Positions 31,778 through 50,346 of a stretch of 64,000 nt of DNA are shown here, piece after piece (within the stretch, counting starts at the first letter, position 1; every line of letters begins with the position of its first letter). The stretch covers positions 422 to 64,421 of the forward strand of contig DATDOM010000082.1 in NCBI GenBank assembly GCA_035293285.1, written 5' to 3'. The stretch is from Candidatus Nanoarchaeia archaeon (lineage in GTDB: Archaea; Nanobdellota; Nanobdellia; Woesearchaeales; GW2011-AR4). The notes beneath the pieces were generated by a model. That model was not told where the DNA came from and did no database searches. It saw nothing but the letters and a program-made list of their open reading frames with translations. Made by a program: the position numbers and the translations under genes.

Positions 31778-31960
31778 GTCATGTTTACGCCTCGCCATTA
31801 GCTCGGCATGTATGGATTCTCAATTCCGCACACTCGCCCCATTAGGGCGAGGTTTAATGATTTTGGTAAGATTATTGCAATGAATCGAGGCAAATTTTAG
31901 TGCTAATCAAAATTTGCCGAGCGAAACTAGGGGAGCGAAGCGACGAGTTTAAGAGTTAAT
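31778..31960 (+). repeat. GC-rich multi-hairpin intergenic element, copy C
   Basis: GTCATGTTTACGCCTCGCCATTAGCTCGGCATGTAT. CGCACACTCGCCCCATTAGGGCGAGGTTTAAT. Long hairpin CGAGGCAAATTTT-AGTGCTAATC-AAAATTTGCCGAG at 31886-31921. Right end CTAGGGGAGCGAAGCGACGAGTTTAAGAGTTAAT. Confidence 0.65.
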
Positions 31961-34215: not shown

Positions 34216-35280
34216 TCAATACTTCATCTTAAACCTTAAAACTGCCCCAATCCCGCCAAGGCCGTCAAGCTTCATGCCGCCGTCGTGGTCTGAGCTTATT
34301 ATTTCAATTTCGCCTTTTGACGAATCTACTTTTTTCATGATTGACTCAAGCTCAAAATAGAAATTTTCTGCCCTGGATTTCTGGATTAATGAGTCTGTCA
34401 AAAGCAGCTCCTTAATTGCGCCCATTTCTGCAGCCTCTTTTGTCTGCTTTAGGCCGTAAGCTGCAAGGTTGTTTTTTGCAATCTCGGTAAACAGCTCCTC
34501 AACCTTGTTCATTTCCTTTGCACTCCTTTCCTGCTTTAGGGCAACTTTTACTTCAGGCCTTTTTATGACTTCGTCAATGCCATTCTTTGTCGCCGATGAG
34601 CAGGTTGCAAGGATAACTATCTTTTTTATTTCATCATTTTTAATTTCCTTCAAAAAGTCTTCTTTCCAGAATGCAGGAGACGCCAAGATAACCTGCTTTA
34701 TCTTGTATCGTTCAATGTATTCCTCGAGTTTTTTTTGCATCTCTGCATAGAAATTACCGCTTGACTTGTTTTCGGTCCGTTTTTTTTGAACATTTCCCTC
34801 GATATGCAAAAGCACTTCATAGCCGTATTTCTTGAAAAGCGCAAAATACCCCTCTTCGCGGTCGTGCACCAGTATAAGAATTGATGATTTTGTTTCGGAG
34901 CACGCCTCTTTTAGCTTGTCAAGCTGGTATTTTAGCCATTTTTCCTTGATTATCTCAACAGTCGTGTTCTCATCAATGTTAAAAGTGTGGTAATCTCCAA
35001 GCGGAATGTCTTCAGGCGCTGCCTTGATTATGCCGGAAACCCTTAAAGTGTTGTTATGCTTTGAGAATTCGACTTTTTCCACAAGGATTTTGAGAAATAC
35101 AGGCTTTTTTGATGCTTCCTTTGCCCGTTCTTCTGAACTTGCCACTTTTATTTTCCTTAAGGTCTTGCCTTGAAGATAGTCATTTGGCTCAATGATGTTG
35201 CTTAGATACCAAAGGTCATCAAGTTCCTGTGTTAAAAGCTTGATTTCTCCTTTTTTAAGATTTGAATGGATTAGTTTCAT
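34216..35280 (-). CDS. pelA: mRNA surveillance / ribosome rescue factor Pelota
   Basis: MKLIHSNLKKGEIKLLTQELDDLWYLSNIIEPNDYLQGKTLRK N-terminal domain and an eRF1-like C-terminal layout. Confidence 0.85.
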   Translation of the reverse strand: MKLIHSNLKKGEIKLLTQELDDLWYLSNIIEPNDYLQGKTLRKIKVASSEERAKEASKKPVFLKILVEKVEFSKHNNTLRVSGIIKAAPEDIPLGDYHTFNIDENTTVEIIKEKWLKYQLDKLKEACSETKSSILILVHDREEGYFALFKKYGYEVLLHIEGNVQKKRTENKSSGNFYAEMQKKLEEYIERYKIKQVILASPAFWKEDFLKEIKNDEIKKIVILATCSSATKNGIDEVIKRPEVKVALKQERSAKEMNKVEELFTEIAKNNLAAYGLKQTKEAAEMGAIKELLLTDSLIQKSRAENFYFELESIMKKVDSSKGEIEIISSDHDGGMKLDGLGGIGAVLRFKMKY

Positions 35281-35392
35281 TGTACTAGTTTTTTAGAATG
35301 GACTATTTAAAGATTAATATAAAATTATGTGAAAAATTGGATTGTTTGGGGATTACTTCCCTATTTAGATAAAATATGCTCCGCGGTTGATA

Positions 35393-35559
35393 GGCGGCCT
35401 TCATTAGGGCCGCATTCATTACCGCACAACCCGCTGCATTTCGGGGTTTTTTGTTTTCTATCGAAATAAATGATTAAGTCAAGAAGCAATTTTCGCCCAA
35501 ATGCAGGCGAATATGGGAATTGGAGACAAAATGCATGCCGAGCAAATGGCGAGGCCTAG
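35393..35559 (+). repeat. GC-rich multi-hairpin intergenic element, copy E (palindromic layout)
   Basis: GCGGCC-TTCATTAG-GGCCGC, then CGCACAAC-CCCG..CGGGG. Inverted modules TTCGCC-CAAATGCA-GGCGAA and ATGCATGCCGAGCAAATGGCGAGGCCTAG. Confidence 0.6.
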
Positions 35560-35735: not shown

Positions 35736-36914
35736 ATGATGAACAAGAAGGGCCAGGGCGGAATAAATGCCGCTGTGCTTATAGCAATTATAGCAGCGCT
35801 GATAATTCTTTACATCATATTCCTCCCAACGTCTGAACGCGAGAATGTGCTTGGCGAGAATTCAGGCTCTTCATCAGACGGAGGCTCGTCAGTTTCTTCT
35901 GTTTCCCTTTTAAAGACAAATCCCGGCAAGCTCACAAGCCAGGGTGATTTGGAAAATGAAAAGCAGATACCAAACGTGTTTTTGGTGGAGACAAGCAATG
36001 CAAAAGAGCTTGACAGGATAAACCCCTTCATTGTAAGAAACGGCTGGTTTGACACAAAAGACAGCAAGATAGAATTTTCGCTCGATGAGCCGGAAAATAC
36101 CGACAATGCAGTCCTCTCATTTGGCACAAAAAAAAGGCAGGGTGTGCTGACAATAAAGCTAAATGGAGTCATAATTTTTGAAAATGAGCTTACAAGCGAC
36201 ATACCTGAGCCTGTAAAGCTTGACCGAAAGCTCCTGCAAAAGGCAAATTCGCTTGAATTCAGCGTATCTTCAGTCGGCGCAAAATTCTGGCAGACAAATG
36301 AGTATTCGCTTGAAAACATAAAAATCATTGGAGACATAACTGACACAAGCAGGCAGGCGTCAGAAAATGTTTTTGACATAACTGAAAGCGAGTTTTCGAA
36401 CCTGGAGCGGGCAACACTTAGGTTTGCACCATACTGCAGCGATACTGCAAATGTCGGACTATTGGAAATATTTGTCAACACCAAAAAAGTGTTTTCAAGC
36501 GTTCCTGTCTGCGACAATCCTTACAAGCAGAGCCTGCCAAAGAGCCTCTTAAACCAGGGGGAAAACAATATTGTATTCAAGACCAAAAAGGGCAGCTACA
36601 GCATTGAACAGATAAGAGTTGCCCTGGACTTTAAAAGCGCTGCATCAAAAACCTATTATTTTGAGCTTACCCCTGAGCAGTATTCAGCAATAAAAAGCGG
36701 AAGCAAGAGCGTGATTGCAACGCTGAAATTCGTGGATGACAAAACACAGAAAAGGCTGAAATTAGATGTCAACGGCAAGGCAGAAACAATAGAGACTGAC
36801 AAGGATTCAGTTACAAAAGCAATAGGAACTAAGGTGTCAGAGGGAAACAACTACATCAAGATAGACCCTTTTGAAGACCTTGAGCTTGTCGAGCTAAAAG
36901 TTGACCTTAACTAA
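35736..36914 (+). CDS. Secreted protein with a prepilin-like (class III) signal peptide, unknown function; first gene of the plus-strand surface operon
   Basis: MMNKKGQGG-INAAVLIAIIAALIILYIIFL, then a Ser/Gly linker and a roughly 330-aa beta-rich region. An ATTTAAATA box lies upstream. Confidence 0.6.
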   Translation: MMNKKGQGGINAAVLIAIIAALIILYIIFLPTSERENVLGENSGSSSDGGSSVSSVSLLKTNPGKLTSQGDLENEKQIPNVFLVETSNAKELDRINPFIVRNGWFDTKDSKIEFSLDEPENTDNAVLSFGTKKRQGVLTIKLNGVIIFENELTSDIPEPVKLDRKLLQKANSLEFSVSSVGAKFWQTNEYSLENIKIIGDITDTSRQASENVFDITESEFSNLERATLRFAPYCSDTANVGLLEIFVNTKKVFSSVPVCDNPYKQSLPKSLLNQGENNIVFKTKKGSYSIEQIRVALDFKSAASKTYYFELTPEQYSAIKSGSKSVIATLKFVDDKTQKRLKLDVNGKAETIETDKDSVTKAIGTKVSEGNNYIKIDPFEDLELVELKVDLN

Positions 36915-37017
36915 TTGCCTTTCAATCATCATCATAATATTCCGGTTCATATGAAAAGAGGTGGCTTTGGGAAGAATTCTTTAGAGGTTGTTATTTTGGA
37001 TTATATGGTGACTGAAA

Positions 37018-40000
37018 TTGGCTGACGACGGAGAAACTGAAAATCAAGAGGAGAATCCTGCAAGCGGAAGCTCCAGGTGGTCCAGATTTAAAGAGAAAGC
37101 AAGACAGGGCTACAAGAAGGGTAAAGAAAAGATAAGCCAGTCTGGACAGGGAGATGATTCTGGTGATGACAGCGGCGAGGCGCGCGGCAAGGGAACAATG
37201 CCAATCAATGTAACAAATATTGTTGAGCGCGCAAAGTCTGGAAATTTCGTCGGTTGGATAATTGTTGTTGCGCTTGTTTACATAGCTGCATATTACTGGT
37301 TTTTGCCGTTTAGGGTTTGGATCGGCATCTGGGGCTTTAAGCTTTTAGTCGGAATAATTTGGGTCTGCTTCATTTTATATGGGCTGTTTTCTGGTTTCTG
37401 GAACAAGGGTAAGGAAAATATTTCAATAACCAATTTTTTTGTCGGGCTTGTGCTGTTAGTATGGCTATTGGACATGATACCTGCAGACTTTCCGCTTTTT
37501 GGAAGCATTCTTGGCGGGCCCTATGCCGGTTTTGAGTTTGACTGGAAGAGTTTTTCATTTGGATTTTCAACAACGATACTGGCAGTAATAACATCTGGAA
37601 TAACATTTGCATTCTTGTATGTGAACATGATATTTGACATAATAAAAAAAGATGTCATAATGTTTGGGTTTGGGTTTGGGTTTATTGTATTGACAAACAA
37701 GCTTTTGGCAAATTTCATTCCAAGCTATTTGAGCGGCTCTTTTGTGCTCGTCTGGGGGTTTTGGATTTATTTCATTGTTACTGCCGTCCTTGTGGTGCTT
37801 GCAGTGTGGCTTGCAAAAAGATATGATGTGAAGTTAGGAGAAAAATCCGGTGATTTTTTCACTTATCTTCTTATGGCTTTTGTGTTCTCATTTTTTTGGA
37901 TAAACAACGGCTGGATTCACAGCACAAAAGCACTTTACCATGCGATATTCATACTTTGTTTTGGATTTTTTTACATCCAGCCGCATGAGAGGAAAAATCC
38001 TGTAGCATGGCACATTATTATCCCCGCTTTATTGATAATTGACTTTTATGGCTATGGACTTTTGTACTCGACAGATATCCTCTTTGTGCAGTTTATCCCC
38101 GTACTTGTGATTTTTGTCCTTGCTTACTGCTATTACCAGACCAAAAGTAAATATGCCCTGGTTTCTTTCATATTTCTTGTAACTGTGATACTTATCCTTA
38201 GCCTTGTGGCAGTCAACGCATACCAGACAGGCTCAATCCAGTTTCAGGCAAGAGGGGACGGAAAATCATTTTCAACTTTTCTCAATACGCTGACAAAGCA
38301 GACTACAAGCCTTCTCGAGGGGCAGCTTGAAACTGCAACAGGCGGATTATACAGAAGCCAGGTTGAAAAAAACCAGTATGAACCTTTGGGAGTCTACCTC
38401 ACGGACATACGGGCGTCCCAGCCAAGGTACAGGAGTGACGAGCCTGTTACAATCTGGGGCAAGATTAGTGCAAAAACACTGAGCGACCCAATAATAATAA
38501 ATTTCAACTGCTACAGGTTTGAGGGAAAAGACGAGAACAAACAGAAAATTCCAATAAAAGCAGAAGGGCTTTATCCAAACAAGCCTTTCAGTGTTTTTAC
38601 ATATGAGGAGAAAGACACCGAATGCAACTTTAACACCGAAGAAGACCAGGTTGAGCTAAAACCAGGCTCAAACGAAGTTTCATTGTCCGCAACCTATAAT
38701 TTTGACACAAGCGCATACCACAAAGTTTACTTCATTGACAAAGCAAGGCAGCGCTCAATGCTTGTTGAAGGGCTTGACCCATTAAAGGAGTTTGGGATAA
38801 CTGATAAAAACCCGGTTACCGTCTACACAAACGGCCCTGTTGAGCTTGCAGTAAGCATTTCAAACATTGTGACTGTTTCTTCCGAAGATGATTTGGCTCC
38901 GGTCATAGGAATACTCTTAAAAAACCGCGACAGGATAAGCGACAAGGCAGGAAGCCCGCTTGGACAGTGGGAGGGAAAGATAAAGGACATAAAAGAGCTT
39001 GTTTTGGTGCTTCCAAGGGGAGTTTCACTTAAAAAAGTGGAGAAAGACCAAAGATATGACTGCAAGCCTTCGCCTTTCAAGGATTACAGCTCACAAGACT
39101 GCAAAAACTCGTGCCAAACCTACGTGACTGAGCCATGCCATAAAATCTGCAACGAAAACGAGCAGTGCATTGAGCGTGACTGCAAGCCTTCAGAAAAAAG
39201 ATGTTTAGAGGAATGTGACGATTTGTTCAGGGTTGATTCTGCAGGCGGCGCAGAGCTCAAAGGATACCAGCTTGACATTGAAAGCATAAAATCGGAATTC
39301 AAATCAGATGACTTGAAAGATATAGATAAGTTTCGGACTTTTGGCTGCAGGCTTGAATTGGATGGCAAGGAGGTTTTGGATAACACGCCGATTACTACAA
39401 AATTCATAAGGTTAAAGGCAAGATACAATTACACTGTTGAGAAGGGTTTTAACATCAATGTTGATTCAATAAAAATAGATGAAACTGTAAACGGGGGACT
39501 GGTTTCTGATGACGGCTCGGGAAGATTTCCAGTAAGCAATTGTCAGTATAATGGACAGGAGTTTGCATCGAAAAAGTCCAACATAGACAAGATAATAAAC
39601 GGTCTTGCAGCTGCAGGAATAAATACAAAAAATGGAATTTCAGGCGTTCTTGGAAACTTCCGGCAGGAAAGTAACTTTGACCCGACAAAACAAGGTAAAT
39701 TTGGCGACTTGACTTGCTCTAATGACAGAATTGGACCACAGCAGGGGGCAATAGGAATTGCGCAGTGGTGCCGTGAACGCAGGACAAAACTAATCAGTAA
39801 ACACCCGAATTCATACCTGACAATTGATTCACAAGTGGATTATCTTGTATCTGAATTAACGGGGGACTACAAGGGGGCTGTTGCAAAAATGAATGCTGCA
39901 GGATCTCCGGAACAGGCTGCATTAATATGGCAGGGCAAAGCTTTTGAAAGTGCCACGCCAAGTCTAGCGGGGCCAAGAGATGAATATGCAAGGCAGGTTT

Positions 40001-40023
40001 ATAACGGTCTCGAGTGCACTTGA
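37018..40023 (+). CDS. Giant fusion protein: polytopic membrane domain, unknown ectodomain, Cys-rich linker and C-terminal phage-tail-lysozyme-like domain
   Basis: The ORF starts at TTG 37018 and the first ATG lies about 60 codons in. About 10 TM helices (residues about 75-400). The ectodomain shares landmarks with the three downstream paralogs. Cys-rich CKPSPF..CKNSCQTYVTEPCHKICNENEQCIERDCKPSEKRCLEEC. C-terminus GVLGNFRQESNFDP...GAIGIAQWCRERRTKL...QVDYLVSEL resembles Pfam Phage_tail_lysozyme (PF18013). Confidence 0.65.
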   Translation: MADDGETENQEENPASGSSRWSRFKEKARQGYKKGKEKISQSGQGDDSGDDSGEARGKGTMPINVTNIVERAKSGNFVGWIIVVALVYIAAYYWFLPFRVWIGIWGFKLLVGIIWVCFILYGLFSGFWNKGKENISITNFFVGLVLLVWLLDMIPADFPLFGSILGGPYAGFEFDWKSFSFGFSTTILAVITSGITFAFLYVNMIFDIIKKDVIMFGFGFGFIVLTNKLLANFIPSYLSGSFVLVWGFWIYFIVTAVLVVLAVWLAKRYDVKLGEKSGDFFTYLLMAFVFSFFWINNGWIHSTKALYHAIFILCFGFFYIQPHERKNPVAWHIIIPALLIIDFYGYGLLYSTDILFVQFIPVLVIFVLAYCYYQTKSKYALVSFIFLVTVILILSLVAVNAYQTGSIQFQARGDGKSFSTFLNTLTKQTTSLLEGQLETATGGLYRSQVEKNQYEPLGVYLTDIRASQPRYRSDEPVTIWGKISAKTLSDPIIINFNCYRFEGKDENKQKIPIKAEGLYPNKPFSVFTYEEKDTECNFNTEEDQVELKPGSNEVSLSATYNFDTSAYHKVYFIDKARQRSMLVEGLDPLKEFGITDKNPVTVYTNGPVELAVSISNIVTVSSEDDLAPVIGILLKNRDRISDKAGSPLGQWEGKIKDIKELVLVLPRGVSLKKVEKDQRYDCKPSPFKDYSSQDCKNSCQTYVTEPCHKICNENEQCIERDCKPSEKRCLEECDDLFRVDSAGGAELKGYQLDIESIKSEFKSDDLKDIDKFRTFGCRLELDGKEVLDNTPITTKFIRLKARYNYTVEKGFNINVDSIKIDETVNGGLVSDDGSGRFPVSNCQYNGQEFASKKSNIDKIINGLAAAGINTKNGISGVLGNFRQESNFDPTKQGKFGDLTCSNDRIGPQQGAIGIAQWCRERRTKLISKHPNSYLTIDSQVDYLVSELTGDYKGAVAKMNAAGSPEQAALIWQGKAFESATPSLAGPRDEYARQVYNGLECT

Positions 40024-40027
40024 AACA

Positions 40028-41056
40028 ATGAACAGCAAAAACATTAGCTTGATTATGGTCATATGTATTTTTATTAGCTCCTGCTCCTCTTCAAATAACC
40101 AGCAGTCATCGCTTGCCCAGCCGATTTATGGCTTTGACGGGCTTAAAATTGAGTTTGCAAAAGGGTTGTCACCAAAAGTTTTCGAGAAAAGCAGCTTTCC
40201 GCTGATTTTAAAGATATCCAACCAGGGCACTTACACAATTAATGAAAACGACAAAGCAGTGCTCTCAATTGGGACTGAAAAGGATTACATTCCTTCTTTT
40301 GAGTTTCTTCCAAGCGATGCACGTATTGAGACATCTATAAATCCAAATCAGAGGATGTTTGCTTTAGAAGGAAGAAGCCCTTTTAACCCCAGAGGAGAGG
40401 AGATTTATGTAGGACTCAATGCAAAGACAAGCAAGCTTGATGCACAGAGCGAGAAAAGGGTGTCAACCCTGACTGCAAGCCTTTGCTACCGTTATAAGAC
40501 AGTCTTAAACACAGATGCGTGCATAGACACAGACATTGTTGGGATAAGAACTGGAAAAAAAGTGTGCACTGTAAAAGACATTGTTTTTCCAAACGGGCAG
40601 GGCGCGCCCATTGCAGTAACAAAAATAGAGCAGCAGATAATACCACAGCAGGATTCTGTAAAGCAGCAGTTTCTCATATACGTTGAAAACAAGGGAAACG
40701 GGCATCCATTAAATCCGAGTAACTACCTGTCAATATGTGACAGCCAGGATTTTTCGCCAAAACTCTGGAATGTCGCATTCCTAAAGGCATTTAGGGTCGG
40801 AGGCGGCCCTGAAGGAGAGCAGATGATATGCTGCCCTAACATAAACGGCGAGTGCATTGAAACTGAAACTGACCCGGAGAAGATGGCAGGATTCATAAGG
40901 CTAAAGGACAACAAGGATTTTGTAAGATGCACGTTTGCAAAAGGAGTGGGGTTTGACAAAGACACTTTTATTTCACCAATAAAAATAGAAATAGAATATG
41001 GATATTCACAGACAATTTCGACTGATGTAGTAATCCAGAGGCCGATAAAATACTAA
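40028..41056 (+). CDS. Lipoprotein, novel ~340-aa family, paralog 1 of 3
   Basis: Start taken at MNSKNISLIMVICIFISSC. Shared landmarks LCYRYKT..ACIDTD, KKVCTVKD..GQGAPIAVTKIEQQ, IKIEIEYGYSQT. Confidence 0.6.
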   Translation: MNSKNISLIMVICIFISSCSSSNNQQSSLAQPIYGFDGLKIEFAKGLSPKVFEKSSFPLILKISNQGTYTINENDKAVLSIGTEKDYIPSFEFLPSDARIETSINPNQRMFALEGRSPFNPRGEEIYVGLNAKTSKLDAQSEKRVSTLTASLCYRYKTVLNTDACIDTDIVGIRTGKKVCTVKDIVFPNGQGAPIAVTKIEQQIIPQQDSVKQQFLIYVENKGNGHPLNPSNYLSICDSQDFSPKLWNVAFLKAFRVGGGPEGEQMICCPNINGECIETETDPEKMAGFIRLKDNKDFVRCTFAKGVGFDKDTFISPIKIEIEYGYSQTISTDVVIQRPIKY

Positions 41057-41098: not shown

Positions 41099-42151
41099 AT
41101 GAAAGTGTTTAATAAAAAAATCCAGAGCATAATCCTTTTCTTTATTTTAGCCCTTTTTGTCTTTGGATGCTCTGCAAGAAAAGACGTAAAGGATGCAAAA
41201 GACAATGTAAGGGCCGGAATTGAAGGCATGTCAATTGCCTATGTTGCAAACAACCCCCCAAATGAGATTCATATTGATGAATCATCCACAAACGACTTCA
41301 AGATTTTGATGGAAGTGAGAAACAAAGGGGCATATCCGCAGCCTGGGGAAACTGGATTTGGAGAAAATTCAAAAATTTACATAAGCGGATTTGACCCCGA
41401 TATTATTGAACTTGGGCCGCTGGATTCAAGCATAGACAATAAAATCAGCAACCTTGCGCTTGACGGAAGGAGTGACTTGAATCCATACGGCAGCCTGGAT
41501 GTCATGGCATTCCAAGGAAAAATACATTATGATAAAATGATTGTTGAAAAATATGAACCCATCCTTCTTGCGACGTTGTGCTATAACTACAATACAGTTG
41601 CCGGGCCTTCTGTCTGTATCGACCCTGACCCATATTCAATAACAAGCGAAAAGAAAGTTTGCCAGATACATAACTTCAACCTCGACGGGCAGGGCGGGCC
41701 TGTTGCGGTGATAGGAATACAGGAAGAGGCATTTGCATCAAAAACATCTTTTAAGATAACTGTAAAGAATGTCGGCGGCGGAGACGTATTAAGGCCGTCA
41801 GAAGAAACGCTGGAAAAATGCAATCCAAGCAAACCAGGAACAGGAGGGGCATTTGAAGTCTCAAAAAGCAAAGTTACGCTTGATGACATGAACAAAATTT
41901 ATGTTGATGAAGTATCGATTTCAGGAAAAAATCTGGAATGTGCGCCTTTTATGGACAGCGCGGGCTCAACAAGAGCGAGCAGCGGGATTATGAGGCTTGT
42001 AAATGGAGAGGGATTCATTATTTGCGACCTTAAAAAAGAGCAGTATGGGCAGACTGTAGCAGCATACACAACACCGCTCCAGATAAAACTAAGCTATGGA
42101 TACAGGACATCAACTGCAAGAAAGCTGCTCATAATCAAAGAGCCTTCCTGA
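41099..42151 (+). CDS. Lipoprotein, novel ~340-aa family, paralog 2 of 3
   Basis: Signal plus VFGC. LCYNYNT..VCIDPD, KKVCQIHN..GQGGPVAVIGIQEE, LQIKLSYGYRTS. Confidence 0.6.
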   Translation: MKVFNKKIQSIILFFILALFVFGCSARKDVKDAKDNVRAGIEGMSIAYVANNPPNEIHIDESSTNDFKILMEVRNKGAYPQPGETGFGENSKIYISGFDPDIIELGPLDSSIDNKISNLALDGRSDLNPYGSLDVMAFQGKIHYDKMIVEKYEPILLATLCYNYNTVAGPSVCIDPDPYSITSEKKVCQIHNFNLDGQGGPVAVIGIQEEAFASKTSFKITVKNVGGGDVLRPSEETLEKCNPSKPGTGGAFEVSKSKVTLDDMNKIYVDEVSISGKNLECAPFMDSAGSTRASSGIMRLVNGEGFIICDLKKEQYGQTVAAYTTPLQIKLSYGYRTSTARKLLIIKEPS

Positions 42152-42210: not shown

Positions 42211-43233
42211 ATGAAAAAACAATATCTAATGTGCCTGCTCGTTGTTGCCATTCTTGCTTTGGCTGCCTGCTCAAAAAGCGGAACATCAAGCGGAAGCGCT
42301 CCTACAACTCCTTTTATCGGCGGAACCTCCGGAATGGTCATAAATTTTGAAAAAGACAGCCCCCCTCCTGAAGTCACGGATGACCAGTCATTTGCATTCA
42401 ATGCCATCGTAAGGCTTCAAAATGACGGGGAGCACACTGTTGAAAAAAATGACGTGAAACTGCAGCTTTTGGGGTTTGACCCAGCTGACTTTGGCGCGGC
42501 ATTTGAAGATGTGAAGGACGTTGAGCCTGAGGACGATCTTACATCAAAAAAAAGGGATGCTGAAGGAAACATAATCGAGGGAACCACTACTTTTGCGACA
42601 TTTCCGAGAAACGGAGGATTTTTTGTCCCAACTAAATTTCCAGGAAACACTGAATTCACTGTAAGGGCAAATGTGTGCTATAACTATGAAACTCAGTCTA
42701 ATTCAAAACTGTGTGTTTTAAGGGATATGATTAATGTCCGCGATGATGCAATCTGCAGGCCAAACGGCGCAAGAACAGTTTACAGCTCGTCAGCGCCTGT
42801 GCAAGTAACAAGCCTGAGGCAGACTGTTGTCGGGCAAAACAAGATTTCATTCAGCTTTGACATTGTGTTAAGCGGGAACGTTGATATTTTCTGGGATGAT
42901 ACTGAGACAACGCCTTCAAGCGGCTTTGATGTTGCGTGCCCAAGAGCGCCAAGGGAAAGAAGAATAAGGGAAAGCAGGGTCGGAGTCGAAGTAACAGAAA
43001 AAAGAGAAACCGCAGGCTCTGTGTTTACAAACCTTAAGTGCGGCGGGCTTTTCAATTCAGCAATTGGGGACGTGCAGCTTGTGAACGGAAGAAGGACAAT
43101 CACGTGCACAGCTGACATGGTTGAAGACAGAGTAGACCTTGAAAAGCAGGTAGAGATTTTGCTTAAATACAACGTCCTGGACAACAAGGAGACAAGGATT
43201 GTTGTAAAGCACCTTTCAACTGACGCTGATTAA
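42211..43233 (+). CDS. Lipoprotein, novel ~340-aa family, paralog 3 of 3 (most divergent)
   Basis: Lipobox LALAAC. VCYNYET..LCVLRD, AICRPN..SAPVQVTSLRQ, VEILLKYNVLDN. Confidence 0.6.
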   Translation: MKKQYLMCLLVVAILALAACSKSGTSSGSAPTTPFIGGTSGMVINFEKDSPPPEVTDDQSFAFNAIVRLQNDGEHTVEKNDVKLQLLGFDPADFGAAFEDVKDVEPEDDLTSKKRDAEGNIIEGTTTFATFPRNGGFFVPTKFPGNTEFTVRANVCYNYETQSNSKLCVLRDMINVRDDAICRPNGARTVYSSSAPVQVTSLRQTVVGQNKISFSFDIVLSGNVDIFWDDTETTPSSGFDVACPRAPRERRIRESRVGVEVTEKRETAGSVFTNLKCGGLFNSAIGDVQLVNGRRTITCTADMVEDRVDLEKQVEILLKYNVLDNKETRIVVKHLSTDAD

Positions 43234-43333
43234 AAGTTTTATTTTGTTTAGTTTTATTATTTCTAATCGAGTCTCTCGATTGGATTATATTTTTAATTTA
43301 ATTAGTTCTTCCTAAAAAAGCGAATAATAGATA

Positions 43334-43405
43334 GGCCTCGCCATTAGCTCGGCATATATTTTATCATCCAATTCGCACAACTCGCCCCATTAGGGCGAGA
43401 GTTGA
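43334..43405 (+). repeat. GC-rich hairpin element, copy F (short form, modules 1+2)
   Basis: GGCCTCGCCATTAGCTCGGCATATAT...TTCGCACAACTCGCCCCATTAGGGCGAGAGTTGAT, lying between the two convergent surface operons. Confidence 0.65.
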
Positions 43406-43437
43406 TATTAAATTTAGTTATTACAAGAACTGATGGA

Positions 43438-45444
43438 TTAATTCTGAAGCTTTAATATCTGTGCGTTTGTCTCTCCAAGATTTACTTTTGTGTCTGAATT
43501 CAGGTCGGCAATTGGGTTTCCGCTGCTGTCTGAAGCCACAACAAAGAAATAGTAGACGTTCTCATTCAAATTACCCATAAACTTTATGATTATTTTTTCA
43601 TTCACCGGTGGAATTAATTCTGCCTCACTGTCCTCTCTTGATTTGTCTGTTGGCATTAAGTCGCTTATCGCGACATCGTTTAAGATGCCCTGAATTCTAT
43701 TTTGGTCAAGCGGCTTTGATTTTGAATCTGATTTATAATAAACCCTGTAACTGATCACATCAGAAACAACTGACCCATCTGCATTAACAGTTGCTTTGTT
43801 TATTAATGGTATTTCGATTTGTCCTGACTGGTTGGGGAGCTGCAAAGATGATATGCCTACCAGGTTGTCTGAGCTTGGAAATAAATCATCAGTTGAGGCA
43901 AAAGTCGCGTAGTTTTGCCCGCTTAGAATATATTTATTTCCTTCAATGCTCTTGTCATTGTCAAGCTCAATGTTTCCGTCGTTTGCTGCAGTGACTGCAA
44001 AATTGTATTCCTGCCCGTCATTGGGAATGCTTATTTTAATTAACATGCTTTTTTCATCAGGCTCTTCATTTTTTGAAAATCTAAGATTTTCAGCATAATG
44101 GAGTTTTGCTGTGTATAAGGGCACGTCAAATACGCTTGAGCCGATTTTGCGGTATCTGCACGGAGTTTTTGGAGAAGTGAATTCACAATTTGTGATGTCG
44201 ATTGAGTCAAGGGTTTCCTCAGCATCTGAAATGACTTTCACCCTGTTAATTGTCCCTTTTGAAACTTCTTTTTTTATGTCATCCATTTTCATATCAATAA
44301 AGCTTATTTCTTTTGGAGCGTAATATATTGCATAGCTTTTCGTAAGTGTGTCATCGCTTTGCCTCCATTTTAGTATTACAGATTTTTCTGACTTTAAGGA
44401 ATCAAAAACTTTTAAGGATTCAATCGGTTTTGGAGCAGGATTTGGAATTGTGACTGCAAATCTGTAAAAAATATTTCTCAGCTTGACTTGATTATCAGAT
44501 TCATCGAAAGCATAAACCTGCTTGTCGCTTTTATAACAATATGTTACGCCTTTCTTTAATGGAAGGTCTATTATTGTGTTTAATGAAGGTGACAGAAAGT
44601 TACCTTCTTCGCCTTTTGCTATGAACTTCAGCTGCGCTAGTTTCTGGTCCTCGCCGTCTAGTTTTGAAATTTTTGATGTCTTGTATACTATTATGCTTTC
44701 GCCGCTTAATGCAAGCTCAGCGTATTCAGGATATGCAATGTTTGGGAAGTTTTCAGACCTGAACTGGCTGATTTTCTGTTCGCCTTCTTTCCCAAGCTTG
44801 ATTCTCACGGAGTCGGTATATTTGCATACATTGCTTTTTGCCTGTAGGTTTTCCTGGCAGAAGACGTCTCTTGAAACATAGTCTGTGTAAAGAAGATTGC
44901 CTGTTTCGATGTAGCTAAGGGCCAAAGAGTCTAAAGGCTTTTCTGAATCTGCTATTGAAGCCTTTATTTGTCCATTTTCTGTTGTGAGGGTGATTTCATA
45001 GTTTTTGCCTACTTTGACGTCAATTGTCGAAAACCTGCAAACACCATTGTCCTGCTCTGTGCTTATGCACTCTGTTAACTTGTTTGAAAAATCATCAATT
45101 ATGGCCTTTGGCTCATTTTCTCCGGAATTTACGCATCCCCACTTTGCATCATTGGATTTTTCCATAAAACAAGAAAAAACGTTTTCAGATATTTTACAGG
45201 GCTCGATGACTTCTGACCTGAACTCGTCTTTTACTTTTTTGTATTCCTCCTCCATTTTATAGTCCATTTTTGCCCTGAATGAAGGGTTTATTGAGTATGA
45301 GCCTATGATTGGGTTAATTTCTTTTTCTTCGTCAACTGCAAATCCGGTTATTCCGGTTATTGGGCCGTGGCTGCTAAGAGCAACAACTGTTAAAAGTAAT
45401 AAAATCGGAATTCCAACAATCAAAAAGAATTTTTGCAGTTCCAT
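43438..45444 (-). CDS. Large N-terminally anchored extracellular protein, unknown function (possible FN3/Ig-like repeats); last gene of the minus-strand operon
   Basis: MELQKFFLIVGIPILLLLTVVAL anchor. A beta-rich 640-aa ectodomain with an FN3-like stretch KPIESLKVFDSLKSEKSVILKWRQ...YAIYYAP. The start overlaps the upstream stop. Confidence 0.55.
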   Translation of the reverse strand: MELQKFFLIVGIPILLLLTVVALSSHGPITGITGFAVDEEKEINPIIGSYSINPSFRAKMDYKMEEEYKKVKDEFRSEVIEPCKISENVFSCFMEKSNDAKWGCVNSGENEPKAIIDDFSNKLTECISTEQDNGVCRFSTIDVKVGKNYEITLTTENGQIKASIADSEKPLDSLALSYIETGNLLYTDYVSRDVFCQENLQAKSNVCKYTDSVRIKLGKEGEQKISQFRSENFPNIAYPEYAELALSGESIIVYKTSKISKLDGEDQKLAQLKFIAKGEEGNFLSPSLNTIIDLPLKKGVTYCYKSDKQVYAFDESDNQVKLRNIFYRFAVTIPNPAPKPIESLKVFDSLKSEKSVILKWRQSDDTLTKSYAIYYAPKEISFIDMKMDDIKKEVSKGTINRVKVISDAEETLDSIDITNCEFTSPKTPCRYRKIGSSVFDVPLYTAKLHYAENLRFSKNEEPDEKSMLIKISIPNDGQEYNFAVTAANDGNIELDNDKSIEGNKYILSGQNYATFASTDDLFPSSDNLVGISSLQLPNQSGQIEIPLINKATVNADGSVVSDVISYRVYYKSDSKSKPLDQNRIQGILNDVAISDLMPTDKSREDSEAELIPPVNEKIIIKFMGNLNENVYYFFVVASDSSGNPIADLNSDTKVNLGETNAQILKLQN

Positions 45445-46655
45445 TATGGCAATGACCTCGGCCTTGTGCCAGTCTGCTTTTCAATTTCAGAAGCTTTTAC
45501 TGCCCTTTTTGTGCTGCAGCACTCAAAATGCCACGGCTCTGCCTGATACCTTACCCAGCCTGCCTTATACATTATGTCTTCAAGAGTCATCCAGTCTTTT
45601 TGTGTCATTGGCCTTCCTGAAATCCTTATGTCAACTGCATTTCCTGAAAGATGAGGGCATCCGAGAGCGCCGTTTGTCGGGTCGCAGACATATTTTCTCC
45701 TCATTTTTGGGTCAGGATAAATTCTCGCCCATTTTCCATTCCACAAAGCCTTTTGCATCCTTATGTCCCTGTAAGTTGAAGTGAGCTGAAGAGAAACTCC
45801 GTAATCCTTTTTTGCAATTGACTGTGCTTTTGCAATTTTTTCGACTGCATCTTCCTTTAAGAGGCAGCGCTGGCCTTTTTGGCACATTTCGCTAAAACTT
45901 ACCCTCATAATGTCTTTTCCTTCCCCAATATTGACAGACCCTATTTTATTGATGTCAACAAGCACTACGCTTTTCGACTGGTCGATTTTTCCTGCCTCGG
46001 TGCCGCTCACCACCTCCTCTCCGTTGTCATCAAAAACCACTTTGTCAACTTTGTTTAGCTGCTTTAGGCTGTCAAGGAACAACAGCTCCCTGGCATCAGC
46101 CTCGTCATAATCCTCAAAAATGTTGAATTTCATTTTGCTTATTGCGCTTGCAGCTATCTCGAGATTTCCCTTCACGTTAAAATAATAATTATCCAGAAAG
46201 AAGCTGTATGGAGATGAAGAAAGGTATTTGCCGAGCTCATCGTTGAAATAGAATTCAATGTTTGAGTATGGCATTGTCTCGTTAAAGCATTCGGTTTCCT
46301 TGTACACTGCCCCTGTTTTTTTTATTGAAAACCAGACATTGGCATCGTCAATTTTCCCGCAGGAGTTGACTGAAACCTCATCTTCTCCTGACTCGATTGA
46401 TTGCAGCATTCCGCCGTTTTTTGCCATATCATAAGAAGCCTGCTGGATTGCAAAGCTGGCCGATTCGTCAACATACAGGAGTGCAGCTTCTGATTTTAGG
46501 TGTGTTTGAATCAGATTAAACTGTCTTTTTCCAAGAGTTTCTTTCCCGAAAGGAGCTTCTTTATCAAGAAGCACAATATACAGGTAAATCAAAGCTATGA
46601 GGCAAAAAATAACCACAAGCGGCAAAAAATAAAACGAGCTTTTTCTGTTTTTCAT
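45444..46655 (-). CDS. N-terminally anchored peptidase M15 (VanY / LAS-family D-Ala-D-Ala carboxypeptidase or endopeptidase-like)
   Basis: MKNRKSSFYFLPLVVIFCLIALIYLYIV anchor. C-terminal LQLTSTYRDIRMQ, CPHLSGNAVDI and AGWVRYQAEPWHFE match the SxxR..Q / HxxGxAxD / ExWH zinc-ligand pattern of M15/VanY. Confidence 0.7.
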   Translation of the reverse strand: MKNRKSSFYFLPLVVIFCLIALIYLYIVLLDKEAPFGKETLGKRQFNLIQTHLKSEAALLYVDESASFAIQQASYDMAKNGGMLQSIESGEDEVSVNSCGKIDDANVWFSIKKTGAVYKETECFNETMPYSNIEFYFNDELGKYLSSSPYSFFLDNYYFNVKGNLEIAASAISKMKFNIFEDYDEADARELLFLDSLKQLNKVDKVVFDDNGEEVVSGTEAGKIDQSKSVVLVDINKIGSVNIGEGKDIMRVSFSEMCQKGQRCLLKEDAVEKIAKAQSIAKKDYGVSLQLTSTYRDIRMQKALWNGKWARIYPDPKMRRKYVCDPTNGALGCPHLSGNAVDIRISGRPMTQKDWMTLEDIMYKAGWVRYQAEPWHFECCSTKRAVKASEIEKQTGTRPRSLP

Positions 46656-46682
46656 TTTAAGGTTAAAGGATCATATCCTGGA

Positions 46683-47195
46683 TCAGATTTTTTGGGTTGT
46701 CCCGAGTTTTACTTCTATAAGCCCGTTATATGATGGGATTACAACAAGCTGGCTTGGGCACGGGGCATTTGCCTGGCAGTCATCACTGTCCGAATACTTG
46801 TCCCATTTGTCATATTCCCCCTCATATTTTTCCCTACTTATGCAAACCATGCTGCAGTAGCTTGAAAATGAAAATGAGACGGAGTCTCCAAGATATTTTC
46901 CAAGGTTATTTTTTATCCAATCTTTTATTGAAGGGTCTATTCTTGAAAGGGCTATTGCCTGGGCTATGTCAATTTGAGCGCCGTCTATTGTTACAGGGGT
47001 CTTGAGAAAATTCATCAGGTCAACTTTTTCCTGCACTTTTACCGACGCCCCGTTTATGTCGTAAGTGAATTTTCCGGTAGAGATTTTTATTAGAAAATAA
47101 AATATTACAATAATAAGTGCAAAGAAAAGAATGGAGAACAGGTCTGCCAATGCCATTCCTTTTTTACCTGTTTGGAAGAATTGTCTCGATTTCAA
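46683..47195 (-). CDS. Prepilin-like signal protein, unknown function
   Basis: QTGKKG-MALADLFSILFFALIIVIFYFLI. A 32-nt overlap with the upstream ORF, or an alternative start at 47156. Confidence 0.5.
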   Translation of the reverse strand: MKSRQFFQTGKKGMALADLFSILFFALIIVIFYFLIKISTGKFTYDINGASVKVQEKVDLMNFLKTPVTIDGAQIDIAQAIALSRIDPSIKDWIKNNLGKYLGDSVSFSFSSYCSMVCISREKYEGEYDKWDKYSDSDDCQANAPCPSQLVVIPSYNGLIEVKLGTTQKI

Positions 47196-47688
47196 GTGTG
47201 CCTCCTTTCAGTTTTTCCCCGTCTTTTATAAGTACATAATAATAGTGCCTTAGTTTTTGGGCAGAGCCTTTTCCGGAAAGTTTTGCCTCGACAAGGACTT
47301 TTTTCTCATAATAAAGCTCTTTATTGTAGTATGCCTCGTATTTTTTGTCAGAGTCTGATTCATATAATGTCATTTTTGCAGAAGACTCTGAATTTATCTT
47401 TCCGTAAAAAATCGAATCCAAAAGGTTTTTGTCAAGCTCGCTTGACTGGAATTTCTGCAAATCGACAGTTGCTGCATAAATTCTTCCTGTATCAGGATCA
47501 ACATAGCTTATTTTATCAGAAAATAGAATCCTGTAGGCTGCAAGGTCTGCTTCAAGGTCAAAAATATCTATGTTCCTAATGATGAATGTCCTTGAGAGCA
47601 GCACAACTGAGAGAAACATGCAGACAACCACCATAAGCCTTACTATGTCCACAACTGCATTGAACTGGGATTTTTTATGGATTTTCAT
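47164..47688 (-). CDS. Prepilin-like signal protein, unknown function
   Basis: MKIHKKSQ-FNAVVDIVRLMVVVCMFLSVVLL. Size is 174 aa. Confidence 0.5.
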   Translation of the reverse strand: MKIHKKSQFNAVVDIVRLMVVVCMFLSVVLLSRTFIIRNIDIFDLEADLAAYRILFSDKISYVDPDTGRIYAATVDLQKFQSSELDKNLLDSIFYGKINSESSAKMTLYESDSDKKYEAYYNKELYYEKKVLVEAKLSGKGSAQKLRHYYYVLIKDGEKLKGGTLEIETILPNR

Positions 47689-47714
47689 TTTGTTTCTTAA
47701 TATTTTTCAATCAA

Positions 47715-48752: not shown

Positions 48753-48847
48753 AGGCAGATTATTTCAACCTTTGTTTAAATTCTTTTCTAAAAGGGAGTG
48801 TTTCAGATTTAATGCCGGCATGCACAGAAGTGCATCCAAAATCAGCG

Positions 48848-49657: not shown

Positions 49658-49674
49658 ATTTTTATAGAAAATAA

Positions 49675-50070: not shown

Positions 50071-50306
50071 TTTGAGCAGCATACCGGAGTTTCTTTTGGG
50101 CATGTATAGCTTGGTGCCGGAGTGCTGCACTGCCCTTTTACGGTGCATTTGAACCCCTTAGATTCGCAACCAAAAGCATCCTTGTTAAAAGTTGATGAGC
50201 CTTTGGATATAAAAATAAAGCTTACTACAAGTATTGCAAGAAGTATTGCAGCGGCAATTATCATGTTTAGAGCAGCTGCCTCTGCCCTTTTTTTCTTTAT
50301 GTTCAT
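50067..50306 (-). CDS. Small pilin-like protein with a Cys-rich C-terminus
   Basis: MNIKKKRAEAA-ALNMIIAAAILLAILVVSFIFI is homologous to the N-terminus of the pilin at 53485. 6 Cys residues in the last 45 aa. Confidence 0.55.
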   Translation of the reverse strand: MNIKKKRAEAAALNMIIAAAILLAILVVSFIFISKGSSTFNKDAFGCESKGFKCTVKGQCSTPAPSYTCPKETPVCCSK

Positions 50307-50346
50307 GGTAGTTTTATTGTAAAGGTCATTTTTATAGTTTTGTTTT

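What the first reader, a model, noticed from the sequence alone, without database searches (positions are those of the whole stretch)
37018..40023. 1001-aa fusion of a ~10-TM membrane domain, a novel ectodomain, a Cys-rich linker and a phage-tail-lysozyme-like domain
Seen in sequence:
- An acidic N-terminus that exists only if TTG 37018 is the start.
- About 10 hydrophobic helices (residues about 75-400).
- An ectodomain of roughly 370 aa whose landmarks echo the three downstream lipoproteins: GVYLTDIRASQP.., LSATYNFDT.., RLKARYNYTV.
- A 12-Cys linker.
- GVLGNFRQESNFDP...GAIGIAQWCRERRTKL...QVDYLVSEL at the C-terminus.

Established knowledge: that last motif pattern is characteristic of the lysozyme-like domain on phage tail and tape-measure proteins, which attack peptidoglycan.

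Inference: a polytopic membrane base carrying a wall-degrading head could be the platform or conduit component of the locus. I do not recognise this architecture from any described protein.
Basis: partly seen in the sequence, partly recalled or inferred. Interest (0 to 1): 0.7.

Follow-up and report, generated by a model that had tools for sequence, protein, structure and literature searches.

The report
Archaeal membrane protein with bacterial-wall-cutting head
This is a real 1001-residue surface protein of a tiny Woesearchaeota-type (DPANN) archaeon: a membrane-and-ectodomain chassis of no known fold, conserved across that lineage, which here ends in a phage-type enzyme domain that cuts bacterial cell wall, so it most likely serves to attack or feed on bacteria.

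Summary
The ORF and its five-part anatomy are real. It has a charged cytoplasmic tail, 11 TM helices (N-in, C-out), a beta-rich ectodomain with an inserted Cys-laddered helical hairpin, a variable linker, and a PF18013 phage-tail-lysozyme head (E 1e-21) with the catalytic Glu kept. The TTG start is supported.

It is not an orphan. The window is chromosomal DNA of a Nanoarchaeia/Woesearchaeota archaeon, and the TM-plus-ectodomain core defines a family of at least 515 clusters at 50% identity. In nearly every contig long enough to show it, the gene sits in one operon: Pelota(-) | pilin-like ~395-aa protein | this protein | usually three paralogous lipoproteins.

Only the C-terminal head varies. 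Of 161 representatives, 93 are SLT-like, 14 glucosaminidase-like, 12 have no head and 42 are other. The 42 include amidases, crystallin and propeller heads, and this single PF18013 head. Ectodomains 79% identical carry different heads.

The TM domain (pLDDT 81, pTM 0.79) has no match in PDB or Pfam. The claimed similarity between ectodomain and lipoproteins is not significant.

Best reading: a lineage-specific envelope complex that displays interchangeable peptidoglycan hydrolases against bacterial walls. The literature has noted large murein-hydrolase proteins in these archaea. I found no description of the chassis, the operon or the head swapping.

The parts
37018..40023 (+). Whole gene: 1001-aa chassis-plus-head protein, TTG start, TAA/stop at 40021-40023
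   Evidence: collinear homologues
37007..37011 (+). GGTGA Shine-Dalgarno-like site 6 nt upstream of the TTG start
   Evidence: read directly from the sequence
37018..37245 (+). aa 1-76: charged, low-complexity cytoplasmic tail ending in GEARGKG
   Evidence: Homologues carry 24-173 aa tails, many ending in EARG[KRS]G. pLDDT below 50.
37246..38217 (+). aa 77-400: 11-TM membrane domain of unknown fold. D152 (34/36), H308 and D342 (36/36) are conserved; by the inferred topology they lie in the outer half of the membrane.
   Evidence: (pLDDT 81.5, pTM 0.79). No PDB, Pfam or NCBIfam match.
38218..38382 (+). aa 401-455: membrane-proximal segment with the family's most conserved motif, ATGGLYRSQVEKNQYEPLGVY (A440, G443, E450, N452 invariant)
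   Evidence: Used as a search pattern.
38383..39465 (+). aa 456-816: beta-rich ectodomain, 47-49% identical to homologues
   Evidence: Only weak Ig-like or adhesin-like Foldseek hits with TM below 0.25.
39061..39225 (+). aa 682-736: Cys-laddered helical hairpin inserted in the ectodomain. C695/C699/C707/C711 on one helix face C733/C729/C722/C717 on the other.
   Evidence: Helices 692-711 and 715-736. Cys positions give pair sums of 1428, 1428, 1429, 1428. Most of these Cys are invariant or nearly so.
39466..39576 (+). aa 817-853: variable flexible linker
   Evidence: pLDDT about 34. 11% identity to homologues.
39577..40020 (+). aa 854-1001: PF18013 phage-tail-lysozyme head; catalytic-type Glu884 in GVLGNFRQES
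35736..36914 (+). Operon gene 1: 392-aa protein with a near-invariant pilin-like N-terminus (KKG-QGG-INAAVLIAIIAALIILYIIFL) and a weak CBM-like beta-sandwich hit
40028..41056 (+). Operon gene 3: lipoprotein paralogue 1 (lipobox ISS|C). The likely start is ATG 40028, 4 nt after the stop of the large gene.
41099..42151 (+). Operon gene 4: lipoprotein paralogue 2 (lipobox VFG|C)
42211..43233 (+). Operon gene 5: lipoprotein paralogue 3 (lipobox LAA|C), followed by oligo-T runs
34216..35280 (-). Pelota/aRF1-family gene, divergent from the operon; a synteny marker conserved in relatives

Best explanation
The gene encodes the central subunit of a Woesearchaeota-specific cell-envelope complex.

Shown:
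- A cytoplasmic charged tail and an 11-helix membrane domain of unknown fold anchor a conserved beta-rich ectodomain. The ectodomain is stiffened by a Cys-laddered helical hairpin.
- A ~35-residue flexible linker then carries an exchangeable enzymatic head. In this genome the head is a phage-tail-type lysozyme (PF18013) with its catalytic Glu intact.
- The protein is co-transcribed, by gene spacing and strand, with a pilin-like membrane protein and three paralogous lipoproteins. This arrangement is inherited vertically next to Pelota across the lineage.
- In relatives the same chassis carries SLT, glucosaminidase, amidase or non-catalytic heads. Heads have been swapped repeatedly between closely related chassis.

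Inferred:
- These archaea are not known to make murein. Several catalytic families that cleave peptidoglycan at different bonds were recruited to the same position, so the target is bacterial peptidoglycan.
- The complex holds the hydrolase at the archaeal surface, where it opens the wall of a bacterial partner or prey at the contact site. The same action on bacterial wall debris is possible.
- This would give the metabolically reduced archaeon access to the bacterial membrane and to wall-derived nutrients.
- Head diversity would reflect adaptation to different bacterial wall chemistries.

The role of the membrane domain (scaffold, conduit or enzyme) is unknown.
For: - Architecture and topology.
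- Head identity: PF18013 at 72.6-77.9 bits against a cut-off of 28.2. 294 phage records match at 28-35% identity, and those listed are annotated tail lysin, tail-associated lysin or tape measure.
- Catalytic residue: the GxLGNxxxES motif aligns with the phi29 gp13 lysozyme domain, and E884 falls on gp13 residue 45. E884 is kept in 34 of 36 homologues, whatever their head family.
- Archaeal chromosomal context: Pelota, aIF5B, Trm1, RtcA and NurA are in the window.
- Family size and range. All named loci are Woesearchaeota, Nanoarchaeota or Nanobdellota, apart from one 2.5-kb contig binned as Aenigmatarchaeota and MAGs labelled 'uncultured Methanosarcinales' (probably mislabelled).
- Operon conservation. 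It also holds in a distant member on a 1.84-Mb contig.
- Head polymorphism: Pfam tally of 36 homologues gives SLT 18, glucosaminidase 8, Amidase_2 1, PF18013 1. The 161-member tally is 93 SLT-like, 14 glucosaminidase-like, 12 none, 42 other. The 'other' class includes SLT+Amidase_3, crystallin and a DUF5050 propeller. Ectodomains 79% identical carry different heads, and 10 of 12 glucosaminidase bearers have an SLT bearer as nearest neighbour.
- Regional identity: core 40-49%, head 14%.
- Literature: pseudomurein is limited to Methanobacteriales and Methanopyrales (PMC11915815, PMC10117817). Archaeal peptidoglycan hydrolases can kill bacteria (PMC12352652). Woesearchaeotal murein hydrolases have been read as signs of association with, or predation on, bacteria (PMC8204110, PMC9723730).
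Against: - There are no activity, localisation or expression data, and no cultured host-symbiont pair exists for this lineage.
- About 7% of family members have no head (12 of 161). Others carry non-catalytic heads (crystallin, beta-propeller). The conserved function of the chassis therefore cannot be peptidoglycan cleavage itself.
- The operon is core-genomic and syntenic with housekeeping genes. That fits a structural envelope role at least as well as a weapon.
- The head region of the AlphaFold model is poor (pLDDT below 50), so the lysozyme fold rests on sequence only.
- Physical interaction among the five gene products is inferred from gene order alone.
- I could not inspect whole genomes for murein synthesis genes.
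Confidence: 0.6

Rival explanations
1. Structural envelope machine with an incidental head. The five-gene operon builds or anchors the cell surface of these archaea, for example an S-layer anchor, a pseudo-periplasm organiser or a surface-protein assembly factor. The C-terminal head is an optional add-on with no bearing on the main function.
For: - The operon is vertically inherited beside Pelota in essentially every genome examined.
- 12 of 161 members have no head, and some heads are non-catalytic.
- The core is far better conserved than the head.
- The near-invariant TM helix of the upstream protein suggests obligate intramembrane packing.
Against: - About 70% of members carry a peptidoglycan-active head (107 of 161 SLT-like or glucosaminidase-like, plus amidases and further SLT variants found). 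These heads come from at least five catalytic families and keep the catalytic Glu.
- That pattern indicates sustained selection for wall cleavage at this position.
- The two readings are not exclusive. The best explanation already treats the core as a scaffold.
Confidence: 0.2
2. Necromass scavenger. The protein digests free peptidoglycan debris in the environment so the cell can take up amino sugars and amino acids, with no contact with living bacteria. The TM domain might import the products.
For: - Peptidoglycan from dead bacteria has been proposed as an amino-acid source for related Pacearchaeota (PMC11537232).
- The same window encodes a membrane-anchored M15/VanY D-Ala-D-Ala peptidase and a GDSL/SGNH hydrolase.
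- One distant member sits on a 1.84-Mb contig, large for an obligate symbiont.
Against: - A hydrolase tethered by 11 TM helices can act only within a few nanometres of the cell surface. That suits contact better than digestion of dispersed polymer.
- The TM domain resembles no known transporter and shows no internal repeat.
- Repeated head swapping looks like adaptation to particular living targets, although substrate chemistry would also differ among dead walls.
Confidence: 0.13
3. Autolysin for the archaeon's own wall. The head remodels a murein-like or pseudomurein-like polymer made by the archaeon itself, as bacterial lytic transglycosylases do during growth and division.
For: - The gene is core-genomic and single-copy, like a housekeeping autolysin.
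- A VanY-like peptidase is nearby.
Against: - Pseudomurein is reported only in Methanobacteriales and Methanopyrales (PMC11915815, PMC10117817).
- I found no report of murein synthesis in DPANN.
- Heads that cleave different bonds (glycan by SLT, GH73 or PF18013; amide by Amidase_2/3) replace one another, and some members have none. That would be unusual for an essential autolysin.
Confidence: 0.04
4. Viral remnant or assembly chimera. The phage-type lysozyme shows that the gene belongs to an integrated virus, or that a phage fragment was wrongly joined to an archaeal membrane gene.
For: - The head's best database relatives are phage tail lysins.
- NCBI names the protein 'phage tail tip lysozyme'.
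Against: - No phage genes flank it. The neighbours are housekeeping genes in conserved synteny.
- GC content is even across the region.
- The junction lies where every homologue has its head junction.
- The identical protein was called independently in NCBI and ENA records.
Confidence: 0.02

Closest known systems
Large murein-hydrolase surface proteins of Woesearchaeota and Pacearchaeota (fam00969 of Castelle et al. 2021, PMC8204110; GH23 proteins of Vigneron et al. 2022, PMC9723730)
   Same: Same organisms. Large proteins that carry a bacterial-type peptidoglycan-cleaving domain and are interpreted as tools for binding or degrading bacterial walls. Most members of the present family carry the SLT/GH23 domain those papers describe.
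   Different: - Those papers call the proteins 'extracellular' and note only the SLT domain.
- In the passages I read they mention no 11-TM domain, no conserved ectodomain, no five-gene operon and no head exchange.
- I could not check whether fam00969 (up to 3000 aa, also in Pacearchaeota) is this same family.
- The head here is PF18013, not SLT.
Phage tail-associated lysins, e.g. the phi29 gp13 N-terminal lysozyme domain (PDB 3csr), and tape-measure or tail-lysin PF18013 domains of Bacillus and Staphylococcus phages
   Same: The head domain belongs to the same Pfam family, at 28-35% identity, with the GxLGNxxxES catalytic motif. Functionally similar too: a wall-cutting enzyme held at the tip of a larger structure that must get through a bacterial wall locally.
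   Different: The carrier here is a cellular, chromosomally encoded archaeal membrane protein, not a virion tail. There are no phage genes nearby.
Bacterial polymorphic effector systems (CdiA-CT, Rhs, LXG; evolved VgrG or PAAR with peptidoglycan-hydrolase effector domains)
   Same: A conserved N-terminal delivery or display part with a highly variable C-terminal enzymatic domain that is exchanged between close relatives. Some bacterial effectors are also wall hydrolases.
   Different: No sequence or fold relationship. No dedicated secretion system and no immunity gene (none would be needed in a cell without murein). The protein is an integral membrane protein, and nothing shows that the head is released or delivered.
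Modular peptidoglycan hydrolases of other archaea shown to kill bacteria (PMC12352652)
   Same: Archaeal proteins with bacterial-type wall hydrolase domains directed at bacteria. That paper reports Nanoarchaeota as rich in them.
   Different: Those are modular proteins that pair a catalytic domain with a cell-wall-binding domain (the tested examples are zoocin A/M23 homologues). This one is tethered to an 11-TM chassis and has no recognisable wall-binding module.

Membership tests
PF18013 Phage_lysozyme2 (lysozyme-like clan) | Profile match above Pfam's gathering score over most of the model | tested here: met
   72.6 bits for the whole protein and 77.9 bits for the domain alone, against a cut-off of 28.2; model positions 2-138 of 140
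PF18013 Phage_lysozyme2 (lysozyme-like clan) | Catalytic Glu in the GxLGNxxxES motif | tested here: met
   GVLGNFRQES with E884. It aligns with phi29 gp13 GMLGNMQSES, falling on residue 45 by my count. The catalytic role of gp13 Glu45 is recalled from the literature and was not checked here. E is kept in 34 of 36 family heads.
PF18013 Phage_lysozyme2 (lysozyme-like clan) | Lysozyme-like fold | tested here: inconclusive
   The full-length model has pLDDT below 50 in aa 820-1001, because the alignment is heterogeneous there. No usable structural hit.
PF18013 Phage_lysozyme2 (lysozyme-like clan) | Muramidase or transglycosylase activity on peptidoglycan | not testable with these tools
   Needs an enzyme assay
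Phage tail or tape-measure protein | Encoded within a viral structural gene module | tested here: not met
   The neighbours are Pelota, acetyl-CoA synthetase, lipoproteins and other cellular genes, in synteny conserved across genomes
Woesearchaeotal TM-ectodomain chassis family (unnamed; defined here) | Collinear match to the TM7-11 region plus ectodomain core, including invariant H308, D342, A440, G443, E450, N452 and the Cys set | tested here: met
Woesearchaeotal TM-ectodomain chassis family (unnamed; defined here) | Operon Pelota(-) | pilin-like protein | chassis | 2-3 lipoprotein paralogues | tested here: met
   The window and nearly all loci long enough to show it
GT-C glycosyltransferases / AglB-STT3 (considered because of the many TM helices, the C-terminal outside domain and a conserved Asp in an outer loop) | GT-C membrane fold and a Pfam or sequence match | tested here: not met
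   The TM-only model (pTM 0.79) has no PDB hit better than E=1.1 and TM 0.25. No Pfam hit in 25 members. Only weak hits of the full model to AglB soluble domains: E 6e-3 to 1.7e-2, TM-score at most 0.21.
Known transporter or channel folds (MFS, ABC, LeuT and others) | Structural match or internal inverted repeat | tested here: not met
Bacterial polymorphic toxin systems | Conserved N-terminal part with a variable C-terminal domain exchanged among close relatives | tested here: met
Bacterial polymorphic toxin systems | Cognate immunity gene immediately downstream and a dedicated secretion pathway | tested here: not met
   The downstream genes are the conserved lipoprotein paralogues, whatever the head type. 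No secretion-system genes in the window.
Archaeal type IV pilin-like proteins (class III signal peptide), for the upstream 392-aa protein | [KR][GAS] followed by Q and a ~20-residue hydrophobic helix at the N-terminus | tested here: met
   Consensus [KR][KR][AGS]-Q[GS]G[LIV]NAA[ILV]L... in 18 distinct sequences. The motif definition comes from general knowledge. Cleavage by a prepilin peptidase cannot be tested here.
Lipoproteins, for the three downstream genes | Signal peptide ending in a lipobox [LVI][ASTG][GAS]C | tested here: met
   ISS|C, VFG|C and LAA|C in the window, and equivalent boxes in all 17 sequences from six loci

The most novel reading that the evidence does not exclude
The five-gene operon encodes a previously undescribed, lineage-defining archaeal envelope machine. 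A novel-fold 11-TM subunit with outward-facing Asp/His/Asp residues would act as a conduit or enzyme. A pilin-like protein and three lipoproteins would form the scaffold. Interchangeable wall-cutting heads would breach bacterial cells. On this reading Woesearchaeales as a group live by cross-domain episymbiosis or predation on bacteria, and head diversity records an arms race over host range.
Probability: 0.3. Interest if true: 0.85.

Novelty: new variant of a known kind. Interest (0 to 1): 0.6.

Why it matters
Woesearchaeota are among the most widespread uncultured archaea, and neither their hosts nor their way of life is known.

- A vertically inherited surface complex that carries peptidoglycan hydrolases in most species argues that dealing with bacterial cell walls is a basic trait of the lineage, not an occasional acquisition.
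- The chassis gives a concrete handle for experiments. The heads can be expressed and tested on sacculi of candidate host bacteria. The ectodomain and lipoproteins can be used as antigens to locate contact sites. The head type in a MAG may predict the wall chemistry of its partner.
- The 11-TM domain, the ectodomain and the lipoproteins have no Pfam, NCBIfam or PDB relatives, so they are also targets for structure determination.
- For annotation, 'phage tail tip lysozyme' is misleading for this gene. Only its last 15% is phage-like.

Tried and rejected
- Ectodomain-lipoprotein homology: BLASTP and profile-profile hhalign were not significant. The same holds for ectodomain against the upstream protein and lipoproteins against the upstream protein.
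- Known fold for the full protein: Foldseek against PDB and BFVD gave only weak Ig-like or adhesin-like hits with TM below 0.25.
- Known fold for the TM domain: a separate, confident model gave nothing better than E=1.1. Pfam at E up to 10 on six members, Pfam at E up to 1 on 25 members, and NCBIfam all gave nothing consistent. Neither the split-halves nor the self hhalign comparison found an internal repeat in the TM domain.
- GT-C/AglB and PAP2-like ideas, prompted by the conserved Asp and His residues: no support.
- PDB sequence search with the family profile hit only lysozyme and SLT structures, through the heads.
- Word-indexed homologue search with the head alone found nothing. tblastn against phages did.
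- A second copy of the system in the window: none.
- tRNA and Rfam scans of the window: nothing.
- Source names for distant family members: none on record.
- Literature searches for murein synthesis in DPANN or for a description of this architecture: none found.
- Prophage or chimera explanation: rejected on context and on the conserved junction.


Full report
**1. The observation**

Window 37018..40023 (+) is a single 1001-codon ORF that begins with TTG. The identical protein exists in NCBI and ENA as 'MAG TPA: phage tail tip lysozyme [Candidatus Nanoarchaeia archaeon]' on a 65-kb contig.

The window is archaeal chromosome, not a mobile element. It holds a Pelota/aRF1-family gene, acetyl-CoA synthetase, aIF5B, Trm1, RNA cyclase, NurA, methylmalonyl-CoA mutase and thiolases. 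GC content is even, 36-42%.

**2. Start codon**

Residues 2-60 contain no Met, Val or Leu codon that could serve as a start. The choice is therefore TTG 37018 or ATG 37198.
- Thirty-five full-length relatives have a charged, low-complexity tail of 24-173 aa (median 59) before the membrane domain.
- In many of them the tail ends in EARG[KRS]G. The window has GEARGKGT at aa 53-60, upstream of Met61, so that stretch is coding.
- GGTGA lies 6 nt upstream of the TTG.

**3. Anatomy**

- Membrane domain: hydropathy and two AlphaFold models give 11 TM helices between aa 77 and 400.
- Topology: cytoplasmic loops hold 12 K+R in 43 residues and external loops 2 in 53. The N-terminus is therefore inside and everything after aa 400 is outside.
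- Conserved polar residues: D152 (34/36), H308 and D342 (36/36). By the inferred topology they sit in the outer half of the membrane.
- Juxtamembrane motif: after the last helix comes the family's most conserved motif, ATGGLYRSQVEKNQYEPLGVY.
- Ectodomain: beta-rich, aa 456-816, pLDDT 80-93.
- Cys block: nine Cys in aa 682-733. It is not a linker. It is modelled as a helix-turn-helix (692-711, 715-736) inserted in the ectodomain. The pairs C695/C733, C699/C729, C707/C722 and C711/C717 sit at mirror positions (sums 1428, 1428, 1429, 1428). That is the pattern expected for a ladder of inter-helix disulfides or metal sites.
- Linker: aa 817-853, disordered and 11% conserved.
- Head: aa 854-1001.

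**4. The head**

- Pfam PF18013 (Phage_lysozyme2) matches aa 855-996 at E 4.9e-20, and 1.1e-21 for the domain alone.
- tblastn against 50,697 phage records finds 294 matches at 28-35% identity. By organism name, 260 of them are Staphylococcus phages and 18 are Bacillus phages. The listed matches are annotated tail lysin, tail-associated lysin, tape measure or DNA transfer protein, or are unannotated.
- The only solved relative by sequence is the lysozyme domain of phi29 gp13 (3csr). The match is weak (E 0.25) but aligns GVLGNFRQES with GMLGNMQSES.
- E884 is conserved in 34 of 36 family heads, whatever their Pfam family.
- The refutation condition 'no PF18013-like hit' is therefore not met.
- The head is poorly modelled, with pLDDT below 50, so the fold itself is unconfirmed.

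**5. It is a family, and the head is the variable part**

- A homologue search returned 35 proteins of 756-1245 aa, 32-45% identical over the N-terminal 59-87% of the query. All that carry a name are from Woesearchaeota or Nanoarchaeota.
- A profile search of 1.84 billion cluster representatives found 515 at E<1e-30. The match is centred on the later TM helices and the ectodomain.
- A scan of GTDB species genomes gave 51 loci, named Woesearchaeota, Nanoarchaeota or Nanobdellota. The exceptions are MAGs labelled 'uncultured Methanosarcinales', which have the same synteny and look mislabelled, and one 2.5-kb 'Aenigmatarchaeota' contig.
- Identity to the window protein by region: TM7-11 46%, ectodomain 47-49%, linker 11%, head 14%.
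- Pfam on the 36 close members: SLT 18, glucosaminidase 8, Amidase_2 1, PF18013 1.
- Among 161 representatives with a complete ectodomain end: 93 SLT-like, 14 glucosaminidase-like, 12 with no head and 42 other.
- The 'other' class includes SLT+Amidase_3, beta/gamma-crystallin, a DUF5050 propeller, unknown domains, and the window's PF18013 head as a singleton.
- Ectodomains 79% and 75% identical carry glucosaminidase in one protein and SLT in the other. Ten of 12 glucosaminidase bearers have an SLT bearer as nearest neighbour. Heads have therefore been exchanged many times on a stable chassis.

**6. The operon**

In five loci fetched through homologues the order is the same:
- Pelota on the minus strand.
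- A 387-408 aa protein.
- The large protein.
- Two or three proteins of 329-417 aa.

A local HMM screen of all 56 loci then held, plus the window, shows the same arrangement wherever the contig is long enough. A distant member on a 1.84-Mb contig keeps it too.

In the window the gaps between genes are 103, 4, 42 and 59 nt. Oligo-T runs follow the last gene.

The upstream protein has an almost invariant N-terminus, [KR][KR][AGS]-Q[GS]G[LIV]NAA[ILV]LVAIIAGLIILYI. This resembles an archaeal class III (pilin-type) signal and anchor.

The three downstream proteins are paralogues (BLASTP 3e-28 and 9e-8) with lipoboxes. Their family contains only Woesearchaeota hypothetical proteins without Pfam domains.

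**7. What the parts are not**

- The ectodomain is not detectably related to the lipoproteins. hhalign gives 0.6% probability and E 0.09, and only the terminal beta-hairpin aligns. The 'echo' is most simply the look of beta strands with alternating aromatic residues.
- The full model has no convincing match in PDB or BFVD.
- A TM-only model of good quality (pLDDT 81.5, pTM 0.79) has no PDB match better than E=1.1 and TM 0.25.
- No Pfam or NCBIfam family matches the TM domain, ectodomain, upstream protein or lipoproteins.
- The TM domain has no detectable internal repeat.
- I considered a GT-C/AglB-like enzyme because of the layout and the conserved outer-loop Asp. Nothing supports it.

**8. 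Mechanism**

Shown:
- A membrane-anchored, outward-facing chassis.
- A conserved operon.
- An exchangeable head that in most members, and here, belongs to a peptidoglycan-cleaving family with its catalytic Glu kept.

Established knowledge:
- Archaea other than two methanogen orders have no murein-like wall (PMC11915815, PMC10117817).
- Archaeal peptidoglycan hydrolases can kill bacteria (PMC12352652).
- Murein hydrolases in Woesearchaeota and Pacearchaeota have been read as signs of attachment to, or predation on, bacteria (PMC8204110, PMC9723730).

Inference: the complex holds a wall-cutting enzyme on a ~35-residue tether at the archaeal surface. There it opens the peptidoglycan of a bacterial partner or prey at the point of contact. 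Head turnover tracks differences in wall chemistry.

Caveat: members without a head, or with non-catalytic heads, show that the chassis has a function of its own, which remains unknown. I put 0.6 on the best explanation. The rivals and their weights:
- A mainly structural envelope role: 0.2.
- Scavenging of wall debris: 0.13.
- Autolysin for an own wall: 0.04.
- Viral remnant or assembly chimera: 0.02.

**9. Comparison and novelty**

- Membership in PF18013 is met by score and motif. Membership in 'phage tail protein' is not met, on context.
- The protein works like a phage tail lysin (a local wall breach from a larger structure). It is organised like a bacterial polymorphic effector (conserved carrier, variable enzymatic C-terminus), but it has no immunity gene and no secretion system.
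- The presence of large murein hydrolases in these archaea is already in the literature.
- I did not find the 11-TM chassis, the operon, the head polymorphism or a PF18013 head described in the papers I could search.
- I therefore rate it a new variant of a known kind, of moderate to high interest. The main reason is that it turns the question 'do Woesearchaeota depend on bacteria?' into something testable.

Noticed in passing
window 43438-53049 (- strand): A run of about ten genes for secreted or membrane-anchored proteins with no Pfam match. Many have pilin-like N-termini (e.g. KSG-QISIRQVLE, KKG-TSSTEISLIQ, KKG-MALADL). Two are enzymes that could act on bacterial walls: a Peptidase_M15/VanY-like D-Ala-D-Ala peptidase (45444-46655) and a GDSL/SGNH hydrolase (47715-48752). 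Several are Cys-rich. In related genomes the RFC small-subunit gene follows the operon at this position, so this block looks like a genome-specific insertion (compare).
   Followed up: partly
window ~31782-31860 and ~43328-43408; degenerate copy ~35380-35450: A repeated intergenic element of about 75 nt containing a perfect hairpin, CTCGCCC-CATTA-GGGCGAG, and a second CATTAG module. CATTAGGGC occurs 3 times against 0.42 expected. The copies lie downstream of the acetyl-CoA synthetase gene, between Pelota and the operon, and just after the last lipoprotein gene. It could be a terminator-like or small mobile repeat. There was no Rfam hit.
   Followed up: partly
loci L007, L010, L013, L015, L018, L019 and others: Many MAGs titled 'uncultured Methanosarcinales archaeon isolate binchicken_...' carry the Woesearchaeota-type Pelota | pilin-like | chassis | lipoprotein synteny. 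The organism label is probably a placeholder or an error.
   Followed up: no
L057 (contig_49020, 1,838,930 bp), gene at 8001-11339: A distant family member with an SLT head and a 559-aa upstream protein lies on a 1.84-Mb contig with the same synteny. That is a large genome for a DPANN archaeon, and it hints that the operon is not confined to the most reduced symbionts.
   Followed up: partly
window 39980-40027: The mechanical ORF for the first lipoprotein starts at ATG 39980 and overlaps the end of the large gene by 44 nt. The signal peptide (MNSKNISLIMVICIFISSC) begins at ATG 40028, 4 nt after the stop codon, which is the more likely start.
   Followed up: yes
window 138-2066 (-) and 2026-4356 (-): A 642-aa surface-type protein with four thrombospondin type 3 repeats and an F5/8 type C (discoidin) domain lies next to a 776-aa DUF2339 polytopic membrane protein. 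This is another possible adhesion module.
   Followed up: no
window 55327-56628 (+): A 433-aa protein with a RelA/SpoT nucleotidyltransferase domain (E 4.8e-12), a bacterial-type alarmone synthetase domain in an archaeal genome.
   Followed up: no
window 61058-62287 (-): A 409-aa von Willebrand factor A / DUF58-like protein, another candidate surface or adhesion component.
   Followed up: no
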